This document shows, one piece after another, positions 1,911-54,451 of a stretch of 64,000 nucleotides of DNA. The stretch comes from Escherichia coli (GTDB taxonomy: Bacteria > Pseudomonadota > Gammaproteobacteria > Enterobacterales > Enterobacteriaceae). Under the pieces are notes generated by a model that was not told the origin of the DNA, did no database searches, and saw only the letters and a program-made list of their open reading frames with translations. The DNA lies in assembly GCF_050920415.1 (NCBI RefSeq), contig NZ_CP169309.1. One strand, written 5' to 3'. Position numbers and translations under genes: made by a program. Position 1 is the stretch's first letter. Every line of letters begins with the position of its first letter.

Positions 1911-3191
1911 TTAGATCAAGTAATCGATCAACGCCGGTTCTTGTTTGCAGAGGCGACGCCAGTCAACGATCGGCATACGAACTTGCAGACTTACGCTGCC
2001 GTCCTCCTCCATCCACTCTTTTTCTATTGCCTGAAGCTGATAAAAACGACTTCTCAGACGCCCTTCCTGCGGCGGCAGACGCAATGTATGCTGCGCCACC
2101 TCGCCGGAAAGACGCTCCGTCAAAGCCTGAAAAAGCTGTGGTATCCCCGCTCCGGTCTGCGCAGAAAGCCAGACACGGATCGGTTTGTTCTCTTCGTCCC
2201 GATCAATACGCGGTTCAAAATCTTCCAGCATATCGATCTTGTTCATCACCAGCAGGGTTGGGATCTCGTGAGCATCGATCTCTTCAAGAACCGTATTCAC
2301 CGCTTCGATGTTTTCTTGTACTCGCACATCTGCCGCGTCAATGACGTGCAGCAGCAATGTGGCTTGCCGCGTCTCTTGTAACGTGGCTTTAAATGCCGCC
2401 ACCAGATCGTGCGGCAGGTGGCGAATAAACCCTACGGTATCTGCCAGCACGGTTTCACCGACATCCGCGACGTCAATACGCCGCAACGTCGGGTCGAGGG
2501 TGGCAAACAACTGGTCTGCCGCATAGACCCGCGCTTCGGTGATGCGATTGAAAAGGGTAGATTTACCGGCGTTGGTATATCCCACCAGCGAAACAGTAGG
2601 AACGTCGGCTTTGATACGCGATTGCCGCCCCTGCTCACGCTGTTTTTCAACTCTTTCCAGGCGCGACTGTATCTGCACGATGCGATTACGCAACAAACGA
2701 CGGTCGGTTTCGAGCTGGGTTTCACCCGGACCACGCAAACCGATCCCGCCTTTCTGTCTTTCAAGGTGGGTCCAGCCACGCACCAGGCGCGTAGCCAGAT
2801 GGCGCAACTGCGCCAGCTCAACCTGCAACTTACCCTCATGGGTACGCGCACGTTGGGCGAAAATATCTAAAATAAGGCCGGTGCGGTCGATAACACGACA
2901 CTCGCACAAACGCTCCAGGTTACGCTCTTGCGCCGGGCTCAGGGCATGGTCAAAAAGAACGACCGAAGCACCCGTCGCTTTGACAGCTTCCGCAATTTCA
3001 ACTGCTTTACCTTCACCTACAAAATACTTTGGGTGCGGCGCTTTACGGCTACCGGTAATCACCTGCAATGCTTCGACACCGGCGGAAGAGACCAGAGATT
3101 CAAACTCCTGGAGGTCTTCCATATCTTTGTCTTGCGTAAAATAGATGTGTACCAGTACCGCCTGCTCACCAGCATCATAACGGTCAAACAA
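1911..3191 (-). CDS. hflX: GTPase HflX
   Basis: 426-aa ORF with G-domain motifs ([18 protein letters not shown]). Confidence 0.93.
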
Positions 3192-11205: not shown

Positions 11206-11281
<76 letters not shown>

Positions 11282-11316
11282 TTGGGTGGTCTGTGCTTTG
11301 CAGCACTTTCAAATTT

Positions 11317-11392
<76 letters not shown>

Positions 11393-12148: not shown

Positions 12149-12242
12149 GCTATTTTCCACCCATTCACAGTGACTATATTGATCCACAATTGCGTGTATC
12201 ATAGATGTTTTGCCCATCAGGGGCGACCAGGAGTCAGTACGA

Positions 12243-13295
12243 TTGAGTAAAAATAAACTCTCCAAAGGCCAGCAGCGCCGCGTGAACGCCAATCACCAGC
12301 GTCGTCTTAAAACGTCTAAGGAGAAGCCCGACTACGACGACAATCTGTTTGGCGAGCCTGATGAAGGTATCGTCATCAGCCGCTTTGGTATGCACGCTGA
12401 TGTGGAATCCGCCGATGGCGACGTTCACCGCTGCAATATTCGCCGTACCATCCGTTCGCTGGTGACCGGCGATCGCGTAGTCTGGCGTCCGGGTAAACCG
12501 GCGGCAGAAGGCGTAAATGTCAAAGGGATCGTGGAAGCGGTGCATGAGCGCACCTCAGTGTTGACGCGCCCGGATTTCTACGACGGTGTGAAACCCATTG
12601 CTGCCAACATCGACCAGATTGTCATTGTCTCCGCGATTTTGCCGGAGCTGTCGCTCAATATTATCGACCGTTACCTGGTGGCCTGCGAAACCTTGCAGAT
12701 TGAGCCGATTATTGTGCTCAACAAGATAGACCTGCTGGACGACGAAGGCATGGAATTCGTCAACGAGCAGATGGATATCTACCGCAATATCGGTTATCGC
12801 GTATTGATGGTTTCCAGCCATACTCAGGATGGACTGAAACCGCTGGAAGAGGCGTTGACCGGGCGCATCAGTATTTTTGCCGGGCAGTCTGGCGTCGGCA
12901 AATCCAGCCTGCTGAACGCGTTGCTGGGGCTGCAAAAAGAGATCCTGACCAACGACGTCTCGGATAACTCGGGGCTTGGTCAGCACACCACGACTGCCGC
13001 GCGGCTGTATCACTTCCCGCACGGCGGTGATGTGATTGATTCCCCAGGTGTGCGTGAGTTTGGTCTCTGGCATCTGGAACCGGAACAAATTACTCGGGGT
13101 TTTGTCGAATTCCATGACTACTTAGGTCTGTGTAAATATCGCGATTGCAAACACGATACCGATCCGGGCTGCGCTATCCGGGAAGCAGTTGAGGAAGGGA
13201 AAATCGCGGAAACCCGTTTCGAAAACTATCACCGTATTCTGGAAAGCATGGCGCAGGTAAAAACGCGTAAAAACTTTTCTGATACGGATGACTGA
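12243..13295 (+). CDS. rsgA: Ribosome small-subunit biogenesis GTPase RsgA
   Basis: 350 aa from apparent TTG start ([13 protein letters not shown]...); GTPase motifs, C-terminal Cys cluster. Confidence 0.9.
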
Positions 13296-13391
13296 CAATT
13301 AAGCTAACCGTCGTTAGAATCGTCCCCTTTTTTTCAGGATCCGGCATGTAGGCCGGATCAGGAACGACAAAACAATGGCCTGGAGGCTACC

Positions 13392-14360
13392 TTGTTAAAT
13401 TCATTTAAACTTTCGCTACAGTACATTCTGCCGAAATTATGGCTTACTCGCCTGGCGGGTTGGGGCGCAAGCAAGCGGGCAGGATGGCTGACAAAACTGG
13501 TTATCGATCTGTTCGTTAAATACTACAAGGTCGACATGAAAGAGGCGCAAAAGCCGGACACCGCCAGCTACCGCACCTTTAACGAATTCTTTGTCCGTCC
13601 GCTGCGTGACGAAGTACGCCCAATCGATACCGATCCTAATGTACTGGTCATGCCTGCCGATGGCGTTATCAGCCAGTTAGGTAAAATCGAAGAAGATAAA
13701 ATCCTGCAAGCTAAAGGCCACAACTACAGCCTCGAAGCTCTGCTGGCAGGGAACTATCTGATGGCGGATCTTTTCCGTAACGGTACGTTTGTGACCACTT
13801 ACCTCTCTCCGCGTGACTACCACCGCGTGCACATGCCGTGCAACGGTATTCTGCGTGAGATGATCTATGTGCCGGGCGATCTCTTCTCCGTTAACCATCT
13901 CACCGCTCAGAACGTGCCGAATCTGTTTGCCCGTAACGAACGCGTGATCTGCCTGTTCGATACCGAATTTGGCACGATGGCGCAGATTCTGGTCGGGGCG
14001 ACGATTGTTGGCAGCATTGAAACTGTCTGGGCGGGCACCATTACGCCGCCGCGCGAAGGCATCATCAAGCGCTGGACCTGGCCTGCCGGAGAAAACGACG
14101 GTTCAGTGGCGCTGCTGAAAGGCCAGGAAATGGGTCGCTTTAAACTCGGCTCTACCGTTATCAACCTGTTTGCACCGGGTAAAGTTAATCTGGTTGAGCA
14201 ACTGGAAAGCCTGTCTGTCACGAAAATTGGTCAGCCGCTGGCAGTATCTACCGAAACCTTTGTTGCGCCAGACGCAGAACCTGCCCCGCTTCCTGCCGAA
14301 GAGATCGAGGCAGAACACGACGCCAGCCCATTGGTTGACGACAAAAAAGACCAGGTCTAA
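13392..14360 (+). CDS. psd: Phosphatidylserine decarboxylase proenzyme
   Basis: 322-aa [18 protein letters not shown]...; apparent TTG start; LGST self-cleavage motif. Confidence 0.93.
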
Positions 14361-14381
14361 TCCATCAAAGGAAACGCTGAC

Positions 14382-17300
14382 GTGCGCCTGATTATCACTT
14401 TTCTGATGGCCTGGTGCCTCAGTTGGGGGGCGTACGCCGCGACGGCCCCCGATAGTAAACAAATCACCCAGGAACTGGAGCAGGCAAAAGCGGCGAAACC
14501 CGCGCAGCCGGAAGTCGTAGAGGCACTCCAGTCCGCCTTAAATGCGCTTGAGGAACGAAAAGGTTCCCTTGAGCGCATCAAGCAATATCAAGAAGTCATT
14601 GATAATTACCCGAAACTTTCCGCTACTCTGCGCGCGCAATTAAACAACATGCGTGACGAGCCGCGCAGCGTATCGCCGGGAATGTCTACCGACGCGCTGA
14701 ATCAGGAAATTCTCCAGGTCAGCAGCCAGTTGCTGGATAAGAGCCGTCAGGCCCAGCAGGAACAGGAACGTGCCCGCGAGATTGCCGATTCGCTGAATCA
14801 ATTACCGCAACAGCAAACCGACGCTCGCCGTCAGTTGAATGAAATCGAGCGGCGGCTGGGAACACTTACCGGCAATACCCCGCTTAATCAGGCACAAAAT
14901 TTCGCGTTGCAATCTGACTCTGCACGACTGAAGGCGCTCGTTGATGAACTGGAATTGGCGCAGCTGTCTGCCAATAACCGCCAGGAATTAGCGCGTTTAC
15001 GCTCAGAGCTGGCGGAAAAAGAGAGCCAGCAGCTGGATGCATATTTGCAGGCCTTGCGTAATCAGTTGAACAGCCAACGTCAGCTTGAGGCGGAGCGGGC
15101 GCTGGAAAGCACCGAACTTCTGGCGGAAAACAGTGCCGATTTGCCGAAAGATATCGTCGCGCAATTCAAAATTAACCGCGAGCTGTCGGCGGCGTTGAAT
15201 CAACAGGCGCAGCGGATGGATCTCGTTGCCTCGCAACAGCGTCAGGCTGCCAGCCAGACGTTACAGGTCCGGCAGGCGTTGAATACGCTGCGTGAACAAT
15301 CACAATGGCTGGGATCGTCCAACCTACTCGGTGAAGCGTTGCGGGCGCAGGTGGCACGGCTGCCGGAAATGCCAAAACCACAACAGCTTGATACCGAAAT
15401 GGCGCAGTTGCGTGTGCAACGGTTACGTTATGAGGATCTGCTCAATAAACAGCCGCTGCTACGGCAAATCCATCAGGCAGACGGTCAGCCGCTGACCGCC
15501 GAGCAAAACCGTATTCTGGAAGCACAGCTACGCACTCAGCGTGAGTTGCTGAACTCATTGTTGCAGGGTGGTGACACGTTACTGCTGGAGCTGACCAAGT
15601 TGAAAGTCTCCAACGGGCAACTGGAAGATGCGCTGAAAGAAGTGAATGAAGCGACGCACCGCTACCTGTTCTGGACTTCTGACGTGCGCCCGATGACCAT
15701 CGCCTGGCCGCTGGAGATCGCTCAGGATCTGCGTCGTCTCATTTCGCTGGACACCTTCAGTCAGTTGGGCAAAGCCAGCGTAATGATGCTGACCAGCAAA
15801 GAGACGATTTTGCCGCTGTTTGGCGCGTTGATTCTGGTCGGTTGCAGTATTTACTCACGCCGCTATTTCACCCGTTTTCTTGAACGTTCGGCGGCGAAAG
15901 TCGGCAAAGTGACTCAGGATCACTTCTGGCTGACGTTGCGCACCCTTTTCTGGTCGATTCTCGTCGCATCACCGCTACCGGTGCTGTGGATGACGCTGGG
16001 TTACGGCTTGCGCGAGGCGTGGCCTTATCCGCTGGCGGTCGCAATTGGTGATGGCGTAACGGCCACCGTACCGCTGCTGTGGGTAGTGATGATTTGCGCC
16101 ACCTTTGCCCGTCCGAACGGCTTGTTTATCGCTCATTTCGGCTGGCCACGCGAACGGGTTTCCCGGGGGATGCGTTACTACCTGATGAGCATCGGGCTTA
16201 TTGTGCCGCTGATTATGGCGCTGATGATGTTCGATAACCTCGACGACCGTGAATTCTCCGGTTCGCTGGGACGGCTTTGTTTTATCCTCATTTGCGGTGC
16301 GCTGGCGGTGGTCACCCTCAGCCTGAAAAAGGCCGGCATTCCGTTGTATCTCAACAAAGAAGGCAGCGGCGACAACATTACCAACCATATGCTGTGGAAC
16401 ATGATGATTGGCGCGCCGTTGGTTGCCATTCTGGCGTCGGCGGTGGGTTATCTGGCAACGGCGCAGGCGCTGTTAGCGAGGCTTGAAACCTCGGTTGCCA
16501 TCTGGTTCCTGCTACTGGTGGTTTATCACGTTATCCGCCGCTGGATGCTGATCCAACGCCGCAGGCTGGCGTTTGACCGGGCGAAGCATCGCCGGGCAGA
16601 GATGTTAGCGCAGCGTGCGCGTGGCGAAGAGGAAGCGCATCATCACAGTAGCCCGGAAGGGGCAATTGAAGTCGATGAAAGTGAAGTCGATCTCGATGCC
16701 ATCAGTGCACAATCCTTGCGGCTGGTGCGCTCAATCCTGATGTTGATCGCCCTACTTTCAGTCATTGTGCTGTGGTCAGAAATCCATTCCGCTTTCGGCT
16801 TCCTCGAAAATATTTCGCTGTGGGATGTCACTTCCACGGTACAGGGCGTGGAAAGCCTGGAGCCGATTACCCTCGGTGCGGTGCTAATTGCCATTCTGGT
16901 GTTTATCATCACCACGCAGCTGGTGCGCAACCTGCCCGCGCTGCTGGAACTGGCGATTTTGCAGCACCTCGATTTAACGCCGGGTACCGGCTACGCCATC
17001 ACCACCATCACCAAATATCTATTGATGCTGATTGGCGGGCTGGTAGGTTTCTCGATGATTGGTATTGAGTGGTCGAAATTACAGTGGCTGGTCGCCGCGC
17101 TCGGTGTTGGTCTGGGCTTTGGTTTGCAGGAAATTTTCGCCAACTTTATCTCTGGCCTGATCATCCTGTTCGAAAAACCGATTCGCATTGGCGATACGGT
17201 GACGATCCGCGATCTCACCGGTAGTGTGACGAAAATTAACACCCGCGCCACCACCATCAGCGACTGGGACCGCAAAGAAATTATCGTGCCGAACAAGGCG

Positions 17301-17705
17301 TTTATTACCGAGCAGTTTATCAACTGGTCGCTCTCTGACTCGGTCACGCGCGTGGTGTTGACGATTCCGGCCCCTGCCGATGCCAACAGTGAAGAAGTGA
17401 CGGAAATCCTGCTCACCGCAGCGCGTCGCTGCTCGCTGGTGATCGACAACCCGGCGCCGGAAGTCTTCCTGGTGGATCTGCAGCAGGGGATTCAGATTTT
17501 CGAGCTGCGTATTTACGCCGCTGAGATGGGTCACCGTATGCCGCTACGCCATGAGATCCACCAGCTGATTCTGGCTGGCTTCCACGCCCACGGTATCGAT
17601 ATGCCATTCCCGCCCTTCCAGATGCGTCTGGAAAGCCTCAACGGTAAACAAACGGGGAGAACATTAACTTCTGCGGGCAAAGGTCGTCAGGCAGGAAGTT
17701 TGTAA
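14382..17705 (+). CDS. mscM: Miniconductance mechanosensitive channel MscM (YjeP)
   Basis: 1107-aa ORF, GTG start, signal peptide, long coiled-coil periplasmic region, MscS-like C-terminal domain. Confidence 0.92.
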   Translation: MRLIITFLMAWCLSWGAYAATAPDSKQITQELEQAKAAKPAQPEVVEALQSALNALEERKGSLERIKQYQEVIDNYPKLSATLRAQLNNMRDEPRSVSPGMSTDALNQEILQVSSQLLDKSRQAQQEQERAREIADSLNQLPQQQTDARRQLNEIERRLGTLTGNTPLNQAQNFALQSDSARLKALVDELELAQLSANNRQELARLRSELAEKESQQLDAYLQALRNQLNSQRQLEAERALESTELLAENSADLPKDIVAQFKINRELSAALNQQAQRMDLVASQQRQAASQTLQVRQALNTLREQSQWLGSSNLLGEALRAQVARLPEMPKPQQLDTEMAQLRVQRLRYEDLLNKQPLLRQIHQADGQPLTAEQNRILEAQLRTQRELLNSLLQGGDTLLLELTKLKVSNGQLEDALKEVNEATHRYLFWTSDVRPMTIAWPLEIAQDLRRLISLDTFSQLGKASVMMLTSKETILPLFGALILVGCSIYSRRYFTRFLERSAAKVGKVTQDHFWLTLRTLFWSILVASPLPVLWMTLGYGLREAWPYPLAVAIGDGVTATVPLLWVVMICATFARPNGLFIAHFGWPRERVSRGMRYYLMSIGLIVPLIMALMMFDNLDDREFSGSLGRLCFILICGALAVVTLSLKKAGIPLYLNKEGSGDNITNHMLWNMMIGAPLVAILASAVGYLATAQALLARLETSVAIWFLLLVVYHVIRRWMLIQRRRLAFDRAKHRRAEMLAQRARGEEEAHHHSSPEGAIEVDESEVDLDAISAQSLRLVRSILMLIALLSVIVLWSEIHSAFGFLENISLWDVTSTVQGVESLEPITLGAVLIAILVFIITTQLVRNLPALLELAILQHLDLTPGTGYAITTITKYLLMLIGGLVGFSMIGIEWSKLQWLVAALGVGLGFGLQEIFANFISGLIILFEKPIRIGDTVTIRDLTGSVTKINTRATTISDWDRKEIIVPNKAFITEQFINWSLSDSVTRVVLTIPAPADANSEEVTEILLTAARRCSLVIDNPAPEVFLVDLQQGIQIFELRIYAAEMGHRMPLRHEIHQLILAGFHAHGIDMPFPPFQMRLESLNGKQTGRTLTSAGKGRQAGSL

Positions 17706-21039: not shown

Positions 21040-21171
21040 TTTCAGACTTATCCATCAGACTATACTGTTGTACCTATAAAGGAGCAGTGGAATAGCGTTC
21101 GCAGACCGTAACTTTCAGGCACTTACCCTGAAGTACGGGGCTGTGGGATAAAAACAATCTGGAGGAATGTC

Positions 21172-22972
21172 GTGCAAACCTTTCAAGCCGATCTTGCCAT
21201 TGTAGGCGCCGGTGGCGCGGGATTACGTGCTGCAATTGCTGCCGCGCAGGCAAATCCAAATGCAAAAATCGCACTAATCTCAAAAGTATACCCTATGCGT
21301 AGCCATACCGTTGCTGCAGAAGGGGGCTCCGCCGCTGTCGCGCAGGATCATGACAGCTTCGAATATCACTTTCACGATACAGTAGCGGGTGGCGACTGGT
21401 TGTGTGAGCAGGATGTCGTGGATTATTTCGTCCACCACTGCCCAACCGAAATGACCCAACTGGAACTGTGGGGATGCCCATGGAGCCGTCGCCCGGATGG
21501 TAGCGTCAACGTACGTCGCTTCGGCGGCATGAAAATCGAGCGTACCTGGTTCGCCGCCGATAAGACCGGCTTCCATATGCTGCACACGCTGTTCCAGACC
21601 TCTCTGCAATTCCCGCAGATCCAGCGTTTTGACGAACATTTCGTGCTGGATATTCTGGTTGATGATGGTCATGTTCGCGGCCTGGTAGCAATGAACATGA
21701 TGGAAGGCACGCTGGTGCAGATCCGTGCTAACGCGGTCGTTATGGCTACCGGCGGTGCAGGTCGCGTTTATCGTTACAACACCAACGGCGGCATCGTTAC
21801 CGGTGACGGTATGGGTATGGCGCTAAGCCACGGCGTTCCGCTGCGTGACATGGAATTCGTTCAATATCACCCAACTGGTCTGCCAGGTTCCGGTATCCTG
21901 ATGACCGAAGGCTGCCGCGGTGAAGGCGGTATTCTGGTCAACAAAAATGGCTACCGTTATCTGCAAGATTACGGCATGGGTCCGGAAACTCCACTGGGCG
22001 AGCCGAAAAACAAATATATGGAACTGGGTCCACGCGACAAAGTTTCTCAGGCCTTCTGGCACGAATGGCGTAAAGGCAACACCATCTCCACACCGCGTGG
22101 CGATGTGGTTTATCTCGACCTGCGTCACCTCGGCGAGAAAAAACTGCATGAACGTCTGCCGTTCATCTGCGAACTGGCGAAAGCGTACGTTGGCGTCGAT
22201 CCGGTTAAAGAACCGATTCCAGTACGTCCGACCGCACACTACACCATGGGCGGTATCGAAACCGATCAGAACTGTGAAACCCGCATTAAAGGTCTGTTCG
22301 CCGTGGGTGAATGTTCCTCTGTTGGTCTGCACGGCGCAAACCGTCTGGGCTCCAACTCCCTGGCGGAACTGGTGGTCTTCGGTCGTCTGGCCGGTGAACA
22401 AGCGACAGAACGTGCAGCAACTGCCGGTAATGGCAACGAAGCGGCAATTGAAGCGCAGGCAGCTGGCGTTGAACAACGTCTGAAAGATCTGGTTAACCAG
22501 GATGGCGGCGAAAACTGGGCGAAGATCCGCGACGAAATGGGCCTGGCAATGGAAGAAGGTTGCGGTATCTACCGTACGCCGGAACTGATGCAGAAAACCA
22601 TCGACAAGCTGGCTGAGCTACAGGAACGCTTCAAGCGCGTGCGCATCACCGACACCTCCAGCGTGTTCAACACCGACCTGCTCTACACCATTGAACTGGG
22701 CCACGGTCTGAACGTTGCTGAATGTATGGCGCACTCTGCAATGGCACGTAAAGAGTCTCGCGGCGCGCACCAGCGCCTGGACGAAGGTTGCACCGAGCGT
22801 GACGACGTCAACTTCCTCAAACACACCCTCGCCTTCCGCGATGCTGATGGCACTACTCGCCTGGAGTACAGCGACGTGAAGATTACTACGCTGCCGCCAG
22901 CTAAACGCGTTTACGGTGGCGAAGCGGATGCAGCCGATAAGGCGGAAGCAGCCAATAAGAAGGAGAAGGCGA

Positions 22973-26616: not shown

Positions 26617-26634
26617 ATCAGGCTCCGGAGAATT

Positions 26635-26680
26635 GGGGCCGTCCCCGGTGAAAAGAGGCGTTTGCAGGTCGTCCTGCAAA
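26635..26680 (-). promoter_or_regulatory. Guanidine-II riboswitch (mini-ykkC) in the gdx leader
   Basis: On the minus strand, two hairpins with ACGR tetraloops (GCAGG-ACGA-CCTGC and GGGG-ACGG-CCCC) about 15 nt apart, immediately upstream of the gdx SD/ATG. Confidence 0.6.
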
Positions 26681-34040: not shown

Positions 34041-34517
34041 TTAATCCTGGCGATCGTCTTTATGATCAAGGCGGTCGCGCTCATCATCCTTTCGCTGGTA
34101 CTCACCATCAAAAGTATTACCGCCACCGGTCCCGGCGCTAAAACCGCCGCCTGGCATGCGAGAAAAGCGCAAATGCGGCATCAACTTCACCGTCAGATGC
34201 TTTTGCACCGGCGGTAATAAAAGCAGAAGGCCGAGGAAGTCGGTGAAAAAGCCCGGTAATAAAAGCAGCAAACCGGCAATGATCAGCGAAACACTTTTAA
34301 TCATCTCCGCCGCTGGGTTTTCACCTGCCGCCATTTTTTGCTGCATCAGCACGAAATTCTTAAAGCCCTGGTTACGTACCAGTGACATACCGATAACTGA
34401 CGTGAATATAACCAGCACGAGGGTCAGCAATACCCCCAATACATGGGCAACCTGAATAAAGATTGAAATCTCAATATAGACATAAAGGAAAATGGCAATA
34501 AAAGGTAACCAGCGCAA
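34041..34517 (-). CDS. fxsA: Inner membrane protein FxsA
   Basis: 158-aa ORF MRWLPFIAIFLYVYIEISIFIQVAHVLGV... Confidence 0.9.
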   Translation of the reverse strand: MRWLPFIAIFLYVYIEISIFIQVAHVLGVLLTLVLVIFTSVIGMSLVRNQGFKNFVLMQQKMAAGENPAAEMIKSVSLIIAGLLLLLPGFFTDFLGLLLLLPPVQKHLTVKLMPHLRFSRMPGGGFSAGTGGGNTFDGEYQRKDDERDRLDHKDDRQD

Positions 34518-39835: not shown

Positions 39836-39871
39836 ACGACACTTGCAGTGGGAAAGACGGAGGAAAATAGC

Positions 39872-40447
39872 GTGCAACGTGAAGATGTACTGGGAGAAGC
39901 CCTGAAATTATTAGAATTACAAGGGATTGCCAACACCACGCTGGAGATGGTTGCTGAACGTGTGGATTATCCACTGGACGAGCTACGCCGCTTCTGGCCA
40001 GACAAAGAGGCAATCCTCTATGATGCGCTGCGCTATCTTAGCCAACAGATAGATGTCTGGCGTCGTCAGCTGATGCTGGACGAAACGCAAACCGCCGAAC
40101 AAAAGCTGCTGGCACGTTATCAGGCGTTATCGGAGTGCGTTAAAAACAACCGCTATCCGGGCTGTCTGTTTATCGCTGCCTGTACGTTTTATCCCGATCC
40201 TGGCCACCCTATTCATCAACTGGCCGATCAGCAAAAAAGCGCGGCCTACGATTTCACCCACGAACTGTTAACCACGCTGGAAGTTGACGATCCGGCGATG
40301 GTAGCAAAGCAGATGGAACTGGTGCTGGAAGGCTGTTTAAGCCGAATGCTGGTGAATCGTAGCCACGCGGATGTCGACACCGCACATCGGCTGGCAGAAG
40401 ATATCCTGCGCTTCGCTCGCTGCCGCCAGGGTGGCGCACTGACCTGA
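39872..40447 (+). CDS. yjdC: TetR-family transcriptional regulator YjdC
   Basis: About 191 aa from an apparent GTG start ([31 protein letters not shown]...), HTH TetR N-terminus. Confidence 0.8.
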
Positions 40448-53883: not shown

Positions 53884-54451
53884 CGATCACGGTTATCTGT
53901 AAGTAATAATTATTACAGTAATGCAAAATACCCCTGGCACAAGTTACATCGTTCATCAGTAAAACTTGTGCCAGATCAAATATAATTCCCCCTCTCTCAC
54001 CGCTGAAAATTAATATCTCTTCGGATGAACGGTGTTTTTAATTTCAAAACGCTAACAAAAGTTAATTAACTATTATGTCGCCCACATTATGTGTATTTTT
54101 ACCCACAAATGGGTAGTTAAGAATAATCTATAAACCTGATGATACCTACCCTGAGAACAAAAATTATACCAATAAGTATCAATAAGATAGCAGCAAACAA
54201 AACATTAACATCTGCGTAGTACAAACTATAAACCCATCGCCAGAGAGTATTTCTCTCTGAAAAAACCGCTTATCACAGTGCATAAATTTGCCGCTGCTTT
54301 AATCAGCCAATATTCACTGTGAGGTATTTACTCAAGCCGGTAACGACCAAACGGATATTTAGTCAAGCTCTGAAAACAGTTCATACAAAACAGAACGTGA
54401 CTGTGATCTATTCAGCAAAAATTTAAATAGGATTATCGCGAGGGTTTACAC

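What the first reader, a model, noticed from the sequence alone, without database searches (positions are those of the whole stretch)
12243..13394. Non-ATG initiation codons on adjacent genes
The conserved N-termini of RsgA and Psd can only be reached from TTG codons (12243 and 13392), and mscM, frdA and yjdC appear to use GTG. Start calls restricted to ATG would mis-set these genes.
Basis: partly seen in the sequence, partly recalled or inferred. Interest (0 to 1): 0.15.

Follow-up and report, generated by a model that had tools for sequence, protein, structure and literature searches.

The report
Known TTG/GTG start codons, E. coli
The neighbouring E. coli genes rsgA and psd begin with TTG, and mscM, frdA and yjdC with GTG, exactly as the reference annotations already record, so the finding is correct but ordinary.

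Summary
The window is an E. coli chromosome segment (hflK to adiA).

- rsgA TTG at 12243
- psd TTG at 13392
- mscM GTG at 14382
- frdA GTG at 21172
- yjdC/dicD GTG at 39872

Two further TTG genes were not listed: hflX (3191, minus strand) and fxsA (34517, minus strand).

Each start has a Shine-Dalgarno core 5-9 nt upstream. No in-frame ATG can reach the conserved N-terminus. The first in-frame ATG is codon 50 in rsgA and codon 49 in psd.

Comparative data fix the sites. In 71 species of Enterobacterales and Vibrionaceae, rsgA starts with TTG (28) or GTG (43) and never ATG. psd is non-ATG in 67 of 74 species and mscM in 52 of 58. The divergent neighbour orn has an ATG at or beside the aligned start in every locus that carries it.

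The two TTGs sit in 61-nt stretches that are identical in at least 99.5% of 5,425 complete E. coli genomes. Two adjacent TTG genes are expected by chance about 1.5-4 times per genome.

The annotation hazard is real. Salmonella RsgA in PDB 2RCN is a 358-residue chain that begins at an upstream ATG.

Verdict: already known, low interest. I found no direct start-site mapping for these genes.

The parts
12229..12233 (+). rsgA Shine-Dalgarno core AGGAG, 9 nt upstream of the TTG
   Evidence: Read directly from the sequence. It lies within the conserved ACCAGGAG block; 26 of the 27 aligned Enterobacteriaceae sequences have AGGAG (L011 has AGAGG). Pairing with the anti-SD is -6.9 kcal/mol.
12243..12245 (+). 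rsgA initiation codon TTG
   Evidence: Annotated start in PGAP and in K-12. The homologous codon is TTG in 28 species and GTG in 43, never ATG. It lies in a 61-mer that is identical in 5,413 of 5,425 E. coli genomes.
12243..13295 (+). rsgA CDS (350 aa, 30S-subunit biogenesis GTPase)
   Evidence: NF008931 aligns residues 1-349 to model positions 1-346 of 347.
12210..12212 (+). In-frame upstream TTG, 11 codons before the start; rejected as the rsgA start
   Evidence: There is no SD in E. coli. It lies in a conserved leader hairpin. The codons between it and 12243 vary non-synonymously, and locus L015 has a 2-nt indel that breaks the frame.
12197..12224 (+). Conserved rsgA leader: -10-like TATCAT (12197-12202) and a GC hairpin (12212-12224)
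   Evidence: The stretch is invariant or nearly so in 27 Enterobacteriaceae sequences. The stem has four conserved G-C pairs (one pair is invariant; one locus, L029, departs in the other three) and a partly covarying fifth pair. Its function was not tested.
13382..13386 (+). psd Shine-Dalgarno core GGAGG, 5 nt upstream of the TTG
   Evidence: Pairing is -9.3 kcal/mol. It is conserved as CTGGAGGCTA across most Enterobacteriaceae (CAGGAGGCTA in the Cedecea group).
13392..13394 (+). psd initiation codon TTG
   Evidence: Annotated start. It is the only ATG/GTG/TTG between the stop at 13305 and codon 49. The homologous codon is TTG in 26 species, GTG in 41 and ATG in 7. It lies in a 61-mer that is identical in 5,398 of 5,425 E. 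coli genomes.
13392..14360 (+). psd CDS (322 aa phosphatidylserine decarboxylase proenzyme)
   Evidence: PDB beta chains begin at MLNSFK.
14368..14372 (+). mscM SD-like AAGGA, 9 nt upstream of the GTG
   Evidence: -5.6 kcal/mol.
14382..14384 (+). mscM initiation codon GTG, 21 nt after the psd stop
   Evidence: Annotated start. The upstream in-frame stop is 8 codons away with no other candidate. The homologous codon is GTG in 50 of 58 species. NF008180 aligns residues 1-1107.
14382..17705 (+). mscM CDS (1107 aa)
21161..21174 (+). frdA SD GGAGG (21161-21165) and initiation codon GTG (21172-21174)
   Evidence: The FAD_binding_2 domain starts at residue 7 and the first in-frame ATG is codon 42.
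39859..39874 (+). yjdC/dicD SD GGAGG (39859-39863) and initiation codon GTG (39872-39874)
   Evidence: NCBIfam equivalogs of 191 positions align to residues 1-191. An in-frame GTG 8 codons upstream exists but is not used by either annotation.
   Evidence: Annotated in PGAP and K-12. The upstream in-frame stop is 5 codons away. The first ATG, at codon 24, lies just before the Pfam domain, so this start is less tightly bounded here.
   Evidence: Annotated in PGAP and K-12. The FxsA Pfam domain starts at residue 8.

Best explanation
These are ordinary bacterial non-AUG initiation sites, correctly placed and already annotated. The 30S subunit is positioned by a good Shine-Dalgarno sequence: AGGAG at 9 nt for rsgA, GGAGG at 5 nt for psd, AAGGA at 9 nt for mscM, GGAGG at 6 nt for frdA and GGAGG at 8 nt for yjdC. 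Initiator fMet-tRNA then decodes UUG or GUG with a first-position mismatch, so the protein still begins with Met. UUG and GUG belong to the 'canonical' class that IF3 accepts, but they usually initiate less efficiently than AUG. The likely functional meaning is that each start codon, together with a comparatively strong SD, sets a modest translation rate. That rate has been held by stabilising selection for a long time, because the non-ATG state of rsgA, psd and mscM is shared across Enterobacterales and, for rsgA, Vibrionaceae. What is shown here: the position of the starts and their conservation. What is inferred: reduced initiation efficiency and selection on expression level. The adjacency of two TTG genes is coincidence. 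psd-mscM is its own operon, with promoters inside the 3' end of rsgA.
For: **Annotation**
- PGAP and curated K-12 agree on all seven non-ATG starts in the region.

**Sequence logic**
- Upstream in-frame stops and the lack of alternative start codons leave no other route to the conserved N-termini.
- Family models and domains reach residues 1-8.
- Psd residues 1-45 are functionally required (PMC7952604).

**Comparative evidence**
- The peptide [10 protein letters not shown] follows the TTG/GTG directly in 71 species, with third-position variation downstream and non-synonymous, indel-bearing variation upstream.
- In-frame stops lie 1-3 codons upstream of the rsgA start in many genera.
- The control gene orn has an ATG at or beside the aligned start in every locus that carries it.

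**Selection**
- On an NJ tree of 68 species, 143 conserved four-fold sites average 24.4 parsimony changes, 5.1 of them into A. Only 3 of 143 sites never show A.
- The first base of the rsgA start changed 3 times (G to T) and never to A.

**Population**
- The 61-mers that contain the TTG are identical in 5,413 (rsgA) and 5,398 (psd) of 5,425 complete E. coli genomes.

**SD strength**
- The seven non-ATG genes pair more strongly with the anti-SD than the 48 ATG genes, with means of -7.8 and -5.8 kcal/mol (one-sided Mann-Whitney p = 0.014). This fits the SD compensation reported in PMC5622118.

**Literature**
- Phylogenetically conserved non-AUG starts are already described for cyaA, tufA/fus and hupB (PMC5499595).
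- psd-mscM is an operon with sigma-E and CpxR promoters inside rsgA (PMC8138132).
Against: - I retrieved no direct experimental mapping of these starts. Supplements of five translation-start (TIS) profiling or N-terminomics papers held nothing on rsgA, psd, mscM or frdA.
- The upstream TTG at 12210 is itself conserved and in frame in 25 of 26 Enterobacteriaceae loci. Its rejection rests on the missing SD, the substitution pattern and one indel.
- Salmonella, Citrobacter and Kluyvera have an in-frame ATG 8 codons upstream, which could be used there.
- Four-fold sites are not strictly neutral, and the tree is a quick NJ tree, so the selection argument is semi-quantitative (empirical p about 0.02).
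- Lower efficiency of UUG/GUG is context dependent. tufA and hupB are highly expressed from GUG.
- The protein abundance of RsgA, Psd and MscM was not examined.
Confidence: 0.93

Rival explanations
1. rsgA actually initiates elsewhere: at the in-frame TTG 11 codons upstream (12210), at GTG codon 14 (12282), or at the first ATG (codon 50). On this view the annotated TTG is only a Leu codon or non-coding.
For: - TTG 12210 is in frame, lies after the stop at 12180, and sits in a block that is invariant across Enterobacteriaceae.
- Some gene callers use it, giving 361-aa products, or use the -8 ATG where it exists, giving 358/359-aa products that include PDB 2RCN.
Against: - E. coli has no SD before 12210, and that codon sits at the foot of a conserved hairpin just after a -10-like TATCAT.
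- The 10 codons between 12210 and 12243 change non-synonymously, and one species has a 2-nt indel there.
- Outside Enterobacteriaceae an in-frame stop lies 1-3 codons upstream of the homologous GTG.
- Residues 2-13 are conserved as protein with synonymous variation in 71 species, so starts at codon 14 or 50 would discard conserved coding sequence.
- The -8 codon is ATG only in a few genera and AGG, ACG, CGG or GTG elsewhere.
Confidence: 0.04
2. The non-ATG codons are a regulatory device, not just a level setting. One version couples RsgA (and HflX) synthesis to the state of the translation apparatus, as infC does through IF3. Another couples it to ppGpp or nutrient status. The clustering of rsgA, psd and mscM would then reflect shared control.
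For: - rsgA is never ATG in 71 species, although neutral sites are saturated.
- rsgA and psd both switch GTG to TTG at the base of Enterobacteriaceae.
- In vitro, non-AUG mRNAs are preferentially disadvantaged by nutrient limitation and ppGpp (PMC5499595).
- Two ribosome-associated GTPase genes in the window (rsgA, hflX) use TTG.
Against: - UUG and GUG are in the class IF3 accepts, unlike the AUU of infC.
- Deleting rsgA does not change start-codon discrimination in vivo (PMC6868393).
- psd-mscM is transcribed from its own promoters.
- psd and mscM do become ATG in several lineages.
- Adjacency is expected by chance.
- There is no conserved structure of significance around the start codons (folding z-scores -0.2 to -1.8) and no Rfam element.
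Confidence: 0.08
3. The TTG/GTG starts are neutral or slightly deleterious drift products with no selective maintenance. They persist only because single-site mutation is rare.
For: - Genome-wide analyses find selection favouring AUG and treat GUG/UUG as sub-optimal (PMC5622118).
- psd and mscM show occasional switches to ATG.
Against: - Across the same 68 species, four-fold sites changed about 24 times each and gained A about 5 times each. The first base of the rsgA start changed 3 times and never to A, and the psd and mscM start bases changed only 6 and 4 times.
- Under drift toward a favoured ATG, many lineages should have fixed ATG.
- The strong, conserved SDs argue for constraint on the whole initiation region.
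Confidence: 0.15

Closest known systems
Standard E. coli K-12 annotated UUG/GUG initiation codons (class I start codons read by fMet-tRNA)
   Same: Same genes, same codons and same coordinates by homology. K-12 b4161 rsgA TTG, b4160 psd TTG, b4159 mscM GTG, b4154 frdA GTG and b4135 dicD/yjdC GTG all have an SD at 5-9 nt.
   Different: Nothing of substance. The window's strain differs from K-12 by about 4% in DNA and by 1-3 residues per protein.
Phylogenetically conserved non-AUG starts in gammaproteobacteria (cyaA UUG; tufA/fus GUG; hupB GUG) described in PMC5499595
   Same: The non-ATG state is kept across orders: rsgA 71 of 71, psd 67 of 74 and mscM 52 of 58 species.
   Different: rsgA, psd and mscM do not appear in the text of the section I read; its Table 1 was not shown. 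The codon toggles between GTG and TTG among families and is not fixed as one codon.
infC AUU start with IF3 autoregulation
   Same: A translation-related gene with a conserved sub-optimal start codon.
   Different: infC uses a class II codon that IF3 discriminates against. rsgA uses UUG/GUG, which IF3 accepts, and loss of RsgA does not alter start-codon selection.
ftsH and other UUG starts re-mapped by tetracycline-inhibited ribosome profiling (PMC4909307)
   Same: An example of ATG-biased annotation mis-setting a UUG-initiated gene. For RsgA the parallel is the ATG-extended Salmonella form in 2RCN.
   Different: For E. coli rsgA and psd the current annotation already uses the TTG, so no correction is needed.

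Membership tests
Canonical bacterial non-AUG (GUG/UUG) initiation site | In-frame GUG or UUG at the point where conserved protein sequence begins | tested here: met
   Conserved N-terminal peptides start directly after the codon in 58-74 species. Family models align from residue 1.
Canonical bacterial non-AUG (GUG/UUG) initiation site | Shine-Dalgarno complementarity about 5-10 nt upstream | tested here: met
   AGGAG at 9 nt (rsgA), GGAGG at 5 nt (psd), AAGGA at 9 nt (mscM), GGAGG at 6 nt (frdA) and GGAGG at 8 nt (yjdC). Pairing energies are -5.6 to -9.5 kcal/mol.
Canonical bacterial non-AUG (GUG/UUG) initiation site | No in-frame AUG able to supply the conserved or functional N-terminus | tested here: met
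   The first in-frame ATG is codon 50 (rsgA), 49 (psd), 9 (mscM), 42 (frdA) and 26 (yjdC). None lies upstream before the stop in this window.
Canonical bacterial non-AUG (GUG/UUG) initiation site | Experimentally mapped N-terminus or initiating-ribosome peak at the codon | not testable with these tools
   No gene-level data were found in the held supplements. PDB constructs only show what was cloned.
Phylogenetically conserved non-AUG start (cyaA/hupB/tufA type) | Orthologues in most gammaproteobacterial relatives keep a non-AUG start | tested here: met
   rsgA has 0 ATG in 71 species, psd 7 in 74 and mscM 6 in 58. orn has an ATG at or beside the aligned start in every locus that carries it. 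The start base changes far less than four-fold sites.
IF3-type autoregulated non-canonical start (infC) | Class II start codon (AUU/AUC/AUA/CUG) subject to IF3 discrimination | tested here: not met
   The codons here are UUG and GUG, which IF3 recognises as canonical according to PMC5499595.
IF3-type autoregulated non-canonical start (infC) | The gene product modulates start-codon discrimination | tested here: not met
   From the literature only: a delta-rsgA strain shows no change in initiation at CUG, AUA or AGG reporters (PMC6868393). UUG and GUG reporters were not tested in that paper.
Translationally coupled or co-regulated TTG gene pair | Shared transcript and overlapping or abutting stop-start for rsgA and psd | tested here: not met
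   A 96-nt intergenic gap separates the genes (13296-13391). The psd promoters lie inside the 3' end of rsgA (PMC8138132). Only psd-mscM, with a 21-nt gap, is an operon.

The most novel reading that the evidence does not exclude
The weak start codon of rsgA, and to a lesser degree those of psd and mscM, is actively maintained. It is never ATG in 71 species spanning Enterobacterales and Vibrionaceae. It may act as more than a level setter, for instance by making synthesis of a late 30S-assembly GTPase especially sensitive to ppGpp, nutrient status or ribosome competition, because non-AUG mRNAs compete poorly under those conditions in vitro. The parallel GTG-to-TTG switch of rsgA and psd at the base of Enterobacteriaceae would then be a coordinated retuning.
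Probability: 0.08. Interest if true: 0.35.

Novelty: already known. Interest (0 to 1): 0.08.

Why it matters
The practical value is limited. It confirms that start calling in this region must allow TTG and GTG. An ATG-only rule would delete functional N-terminal segments:
- the three membrane-binding helices of Psd;
- the FAD-binding fold of FrdA;
- part of the N-terminal hydrophobic leader of MscM (the first ATG is codon 9);
- the conserved basic N-terminus of RsgA.

The hazard is real for relatives. Salmonella RsgA was crystallised (PDB 2RCN) as a 358-residue chain from an upstream ATG, and about 12% of database cluster representatives carry N-terminal extensions.

The long-term retention of non-ATG starts on rsgA, psd and mscM adds three examples to the known class of conserved weak start codons. 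It does not open a new question.

Tried and rejected
1. **Experimental start-site data.** I looked for rsgA, psd, mscM, frdA, hflX and fxsA in five sources and found no entries, so direct evidence is lacking. The sources were supplements of TRAINSPOTTER (gene names and UniProt accessions), TetRP, Giess 2017 and Fijalkowski 2024, and the Ribo-RET preprint, which has no held supplements.
2. **Feedback loop.** I considered whether immature 30S subunits with relaxed start-codon selection raise RsgA translation. I rejected this as unlikely. A delta-rsgA strain does not relax start-codon choice, and UUG/GUG are IF3-accepted codons.
3. **Upstream TTG 12210 as the true rsgA start.** Rejected.
4. **Local RNA structure around the three starts.** Folding z-scores are -0.2, -0.9 and -1.8. 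A small psd hairpin pairs UUG with an upstream CAA and part of the SD, but it is not significant. Rfam has nothing in these leaders.
5. **Local enrichment of TTG genes.** Four of 55 genes gives P = 0.02-0.08. I judged this to be post hoc chance.
6. **Conserved hairpin in the rsgA leader.** Only one variable pair shows partial covariation. I recorded it as a side observation and do not treat it as part of the mechanism.
7. **Deeper sampling of rsgA starts.** The homologue search returned only close relatives, so the depth of conservation beyond Enterobacterales and Vibrionaceae is untested.
Full report
**What the window is.** A 3.2-kb stretch around the finding matches 5,425 of 5,426 complete E. 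coli genomes. It is 100% identical to strain MFDS1022581 (NZ_CP169399.1) and about 96% identical to K-12. Over the whole window the identity to that strain is 99.98%, apart from a tRNA-Gly spacer difference, an IS2 that the window lacks, and a 4-nt indel. The gene order is hflK-hflX-hfq-miaA-mutL-amiB-tsaE-nnr / queG / tRNA-Gly x2 / orn / rsgA-psd-mscM ... frdABCD ... yjdC(dicD) ... adiA.

**Check of the observation.** TTG at 12243 opens a 350-codon frame ([10 protein letters not shown]...). TTG at 13392 opens a 322-codon frame ([10 protein letters not shown]...). GTG at 14382 opens the 1107-codon mscM frame.
- For psd, the in-frame stop is at 13305, and no ATG, GTG or TTG lies before 13392. 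The first in-frame ATG is codon 49.
- For rsgA, the stop is at 12180. The only other candidate is another TTG at 12210, and the first ATG is codon 50.
- frdA (GTG 21172) has no alternative back to the stop, and its first ATG is codon 42.
- yjdC (GTG 39872) has one further in-frame GTG 8 codons upstream, and its first ATG is codon 26.

I mapped the PGAP coding sequences (CDSs) of NZ_CP169399.1 onto the window. This gives 48 ATG, 4 TTG (hflX, rsgA, psd, fxsA) and 3 GTG (mscM, frdA, yjdC) starts. The curated K-12 MG1655 record has the same seven non-ATG genes in the syntenic interval (37 ATG, 4 TTG, 3 GTG) and identical sequence around the psd and mscM starts.

**Is it more than chance?** The positions are not chance, as the comparative evidence below shows. 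The adjacency needs no explanation. With 81 annotated UUG starts in K-12 (PMC4909307), about 1.5 adjacent TTG-TTG pairs are expected per genome. A 3% TTG frequency gives about 3.9. Four TTG genes in 55 gives P = 0.02-0.08 for a region selected after the fact.

**Comparative evidence for the start sites.** A scan of one genome per species with Psd returned 80 loci, from Escherichia to Vibrionaceae and Pasteurellaceae. Most also carry rsgA upstream and mscM downstream. The codon aligned to each E. coli start was as follows:

| Gene | Species scored | TTG | GTG | ATG |
|---|---|---|---|---|
| rsgA | 71 | 28 | 43 | 0 |
| psd | 74 | 26 | 41 | 7 |
| mscM | 58 | 2 | 50 | 6 |

- For rsgA, 26 of the 28 TTG species are Enterobacteriaceae; the other two are Edwardsiella and Morganella. 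GTG covers the other Enterobacterales families sampled and Vibrionaceae.
- The divergent neighbour orn has an ATG at or beside the aligned start in every locus that carries it.
- In many genera an in-frame stop lies 1-3 codons upstream of the rsgA GTG, which bounds the N-terminus.
- Within Enterobacteriaceae, sequence downstream of the TTG varies mostly at third positions. The 10 codons upstream vary non-synonymously, and one species carries a 2-nt indel. This rules out the upstream TTG at 12210 as the start.
- NCBIfam equivalog models align from residue 1 for RsgA, MscM and DicD/YjdC. The FrdA FAD-binding domain starts at residue 7.
- Psd residues 1-45 form the three amphipathic helices. Truncations to residues 13-322, 30-322 and 46-322 impair membrane association and autocleavage (PMC7952604).
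- PDB chains of E. coli RsgA and of the Psd beta chain begin at these same residues. This shows what was cloned and does not prove the native start.

**Selection on the codon.** I built an NJ tree of 68 species from RsgA plus Psd.
- 143 conserved four-fold degenerate sites average 24.4 parsimony changes each, 5.1 of them into A. Only 3 of 143 sites never show A.
- The first base of the rsgA start changed three times (G to T) and never to A. The psd start base changed six times and the mscM start base four times.
- The start bases therefore evolve several-fold more slowly than silent sites. For rsgA, the genome-wide favoured ATG has not been fixed in any sampled lineage (empirical p about 0.02).
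- At population level, the 61-mer centred on the psd TTG is identical in 5,398 of 5,425 E. coli genomes. The two rsgA haplotypes together account for 5,413 of 5,425.

**Mechanism.** Established knowledge: fMet-tRNA reads GUG and UUG in the P site, IF3 treats AUG, GUG and UUG as canonical, and GUG/UUG usually initiate less efficiently than AUG in a context-dependent way. For cyaA the relative levels for UUG:GUG:AUG are 1:2:6 (PMC5499595). All seven non-ATG genes in the window have an SD core at 5-9 nt. They pair more strongly with the anti-SD than the 48 ATG genes, with means of -7.8 and -5.8 kcal/mol (p = 0.014). This matches the SD compensation reported by Belinky et al. (PMC5622118). I infer that a weak codon plus a strong SD gives a tuned, modest initiation rate kept by stabilising selection. 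psd-mscM forms its own operon from sigma-E and CpxR promoters inside the 3' end of rsgA (PMC8138132). The two TTG genes are therefore not a translational unit.

**Rival readings.**
- An IF3- or ribosome-maturation-linked feedback on rsgA was considered. UUG and GUG are not IF3-discriminated codons, and a delta-rsgA strain does not change start-codon selection (PMC6868393), so this is unlikely.
- A ppGpp or nutrient-sensitive role for non-AUG starts is not excluded and is untested.
- Pure drift fits poorly with the low change rate at the start bases.

**The annotation hazard is real.** Among 120 cluster representatives of close RsgA homologues, 96 start at M-SKNK. Twelve carry MGDQEP.R-L-SKNK from an in-frame ATG 8 codons upstream that exists only in some genera. 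Two start at the -11 TTG. The extended form P0001 stands for 6,386 member sequences. Its DNA shows ATG...AGGAG-N9-TTG, with the conserved TTG site intact. Chain 2rcn_A (Salmonella 'EngC') is this 358-residue form.

**Comparison with known systems, and verdict.**
- This is the standard class I non-AUG initiation already recorded for these genes. The sequence-level defining features are met, and the experimental one could not be tested here.
- It resembles the conserved non-AUG starts reported for cyaA, hupB and tufA.
- It does not meet the defining features of infC-type autoregulation.
- Novelty: already known. Interest: low.
- Missing: direct start-site mapping, for which I found no gene-level data.

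Noticed in passing
window 1911-3191 (-) and 34041-34517 (-): hflX and fxsA also start with TTG in both PGAP and K-12 annotation. For hflX the first in-frame ATG (codon 24) lies just before the first Pfam domain, so its start is the least tightly bounded here.
   Followed up: partly
L086 1501-1527; PDB 2rcn_A: The Salmonella-type RsgA is widely called from an in-frame ATG 8 codons upstream of the conserved TTG, giving MGDQEPVRLSKNK... and 358 aa. The crystal-structure chain 2RCN has this extension. The -8 codon is ATG only in a few genera (the Salmonella-type locus, Citrobacter, Pseudocitrobacter, Kluyvera) and AGG, ACG, CGG or GTG elsewhere.
   Followed up: yes
window 12197-12224 (+): The rsgA leader has an invariant -10-like TATCAT followed by a GC hairpin (GCCC-N5-GGGC). 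The block is conserved in 27 Enterobacteriaceae sequences. The fifth pair partly covaries (A-U 7, G-C 4, C-G 2, unpaired 12). There is no Rfam match and the function is unknown.
   Followed up: partly
loci L005-L084 (rsgA and psd starts): rsgA and psd are both TTG in Enterobacteriaceae and both GTG in most other Enterobacterales families. The two genes therefore switched G to T on the same deep branch, while mscM stayed GTG. This could be coincidence.
   Followed up: partly
window 13371-13396 (+): The predicted psd initiation-region hairpin pairs the UUG start with an upstream CAA and encloses part of the GGAGG in a GGCC/GGCU stem. The folding z-score is only -0.9, so it is not significant.
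   Followed up: partly
window 11206-11392 (-): The window has two tandem tRNA-Gly(GCC) genes where K-12 has three (glyV, glyX, glyY). The closest strain also has two, but with a 157-nt spacer where the window has 35 nt.
   Followed up: partly
window 26634-26680 (-): A Guanidine-II (mini-ykkC) riboswitch lies upstream of sugE/gdx (Rfam RF01068, 50.4 bits). This is a known element.
   Followed up: no
window 13392-14360 (+): PGAP labels this gene 'asd: archaetidylserine decarboxylase', whereas K-12 calls it psd. The gene symbol collides with asd (aspartate-semialdehyde dehydrogenase).
   Followed up: no
window 53884-54451: The closest complete genome (NZ_CP169399.1) carries an IS2 between dcuR and dcuB that is absent from the window. 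The two also differ by a 4-nt indel near ecnA.
   Followed up: no
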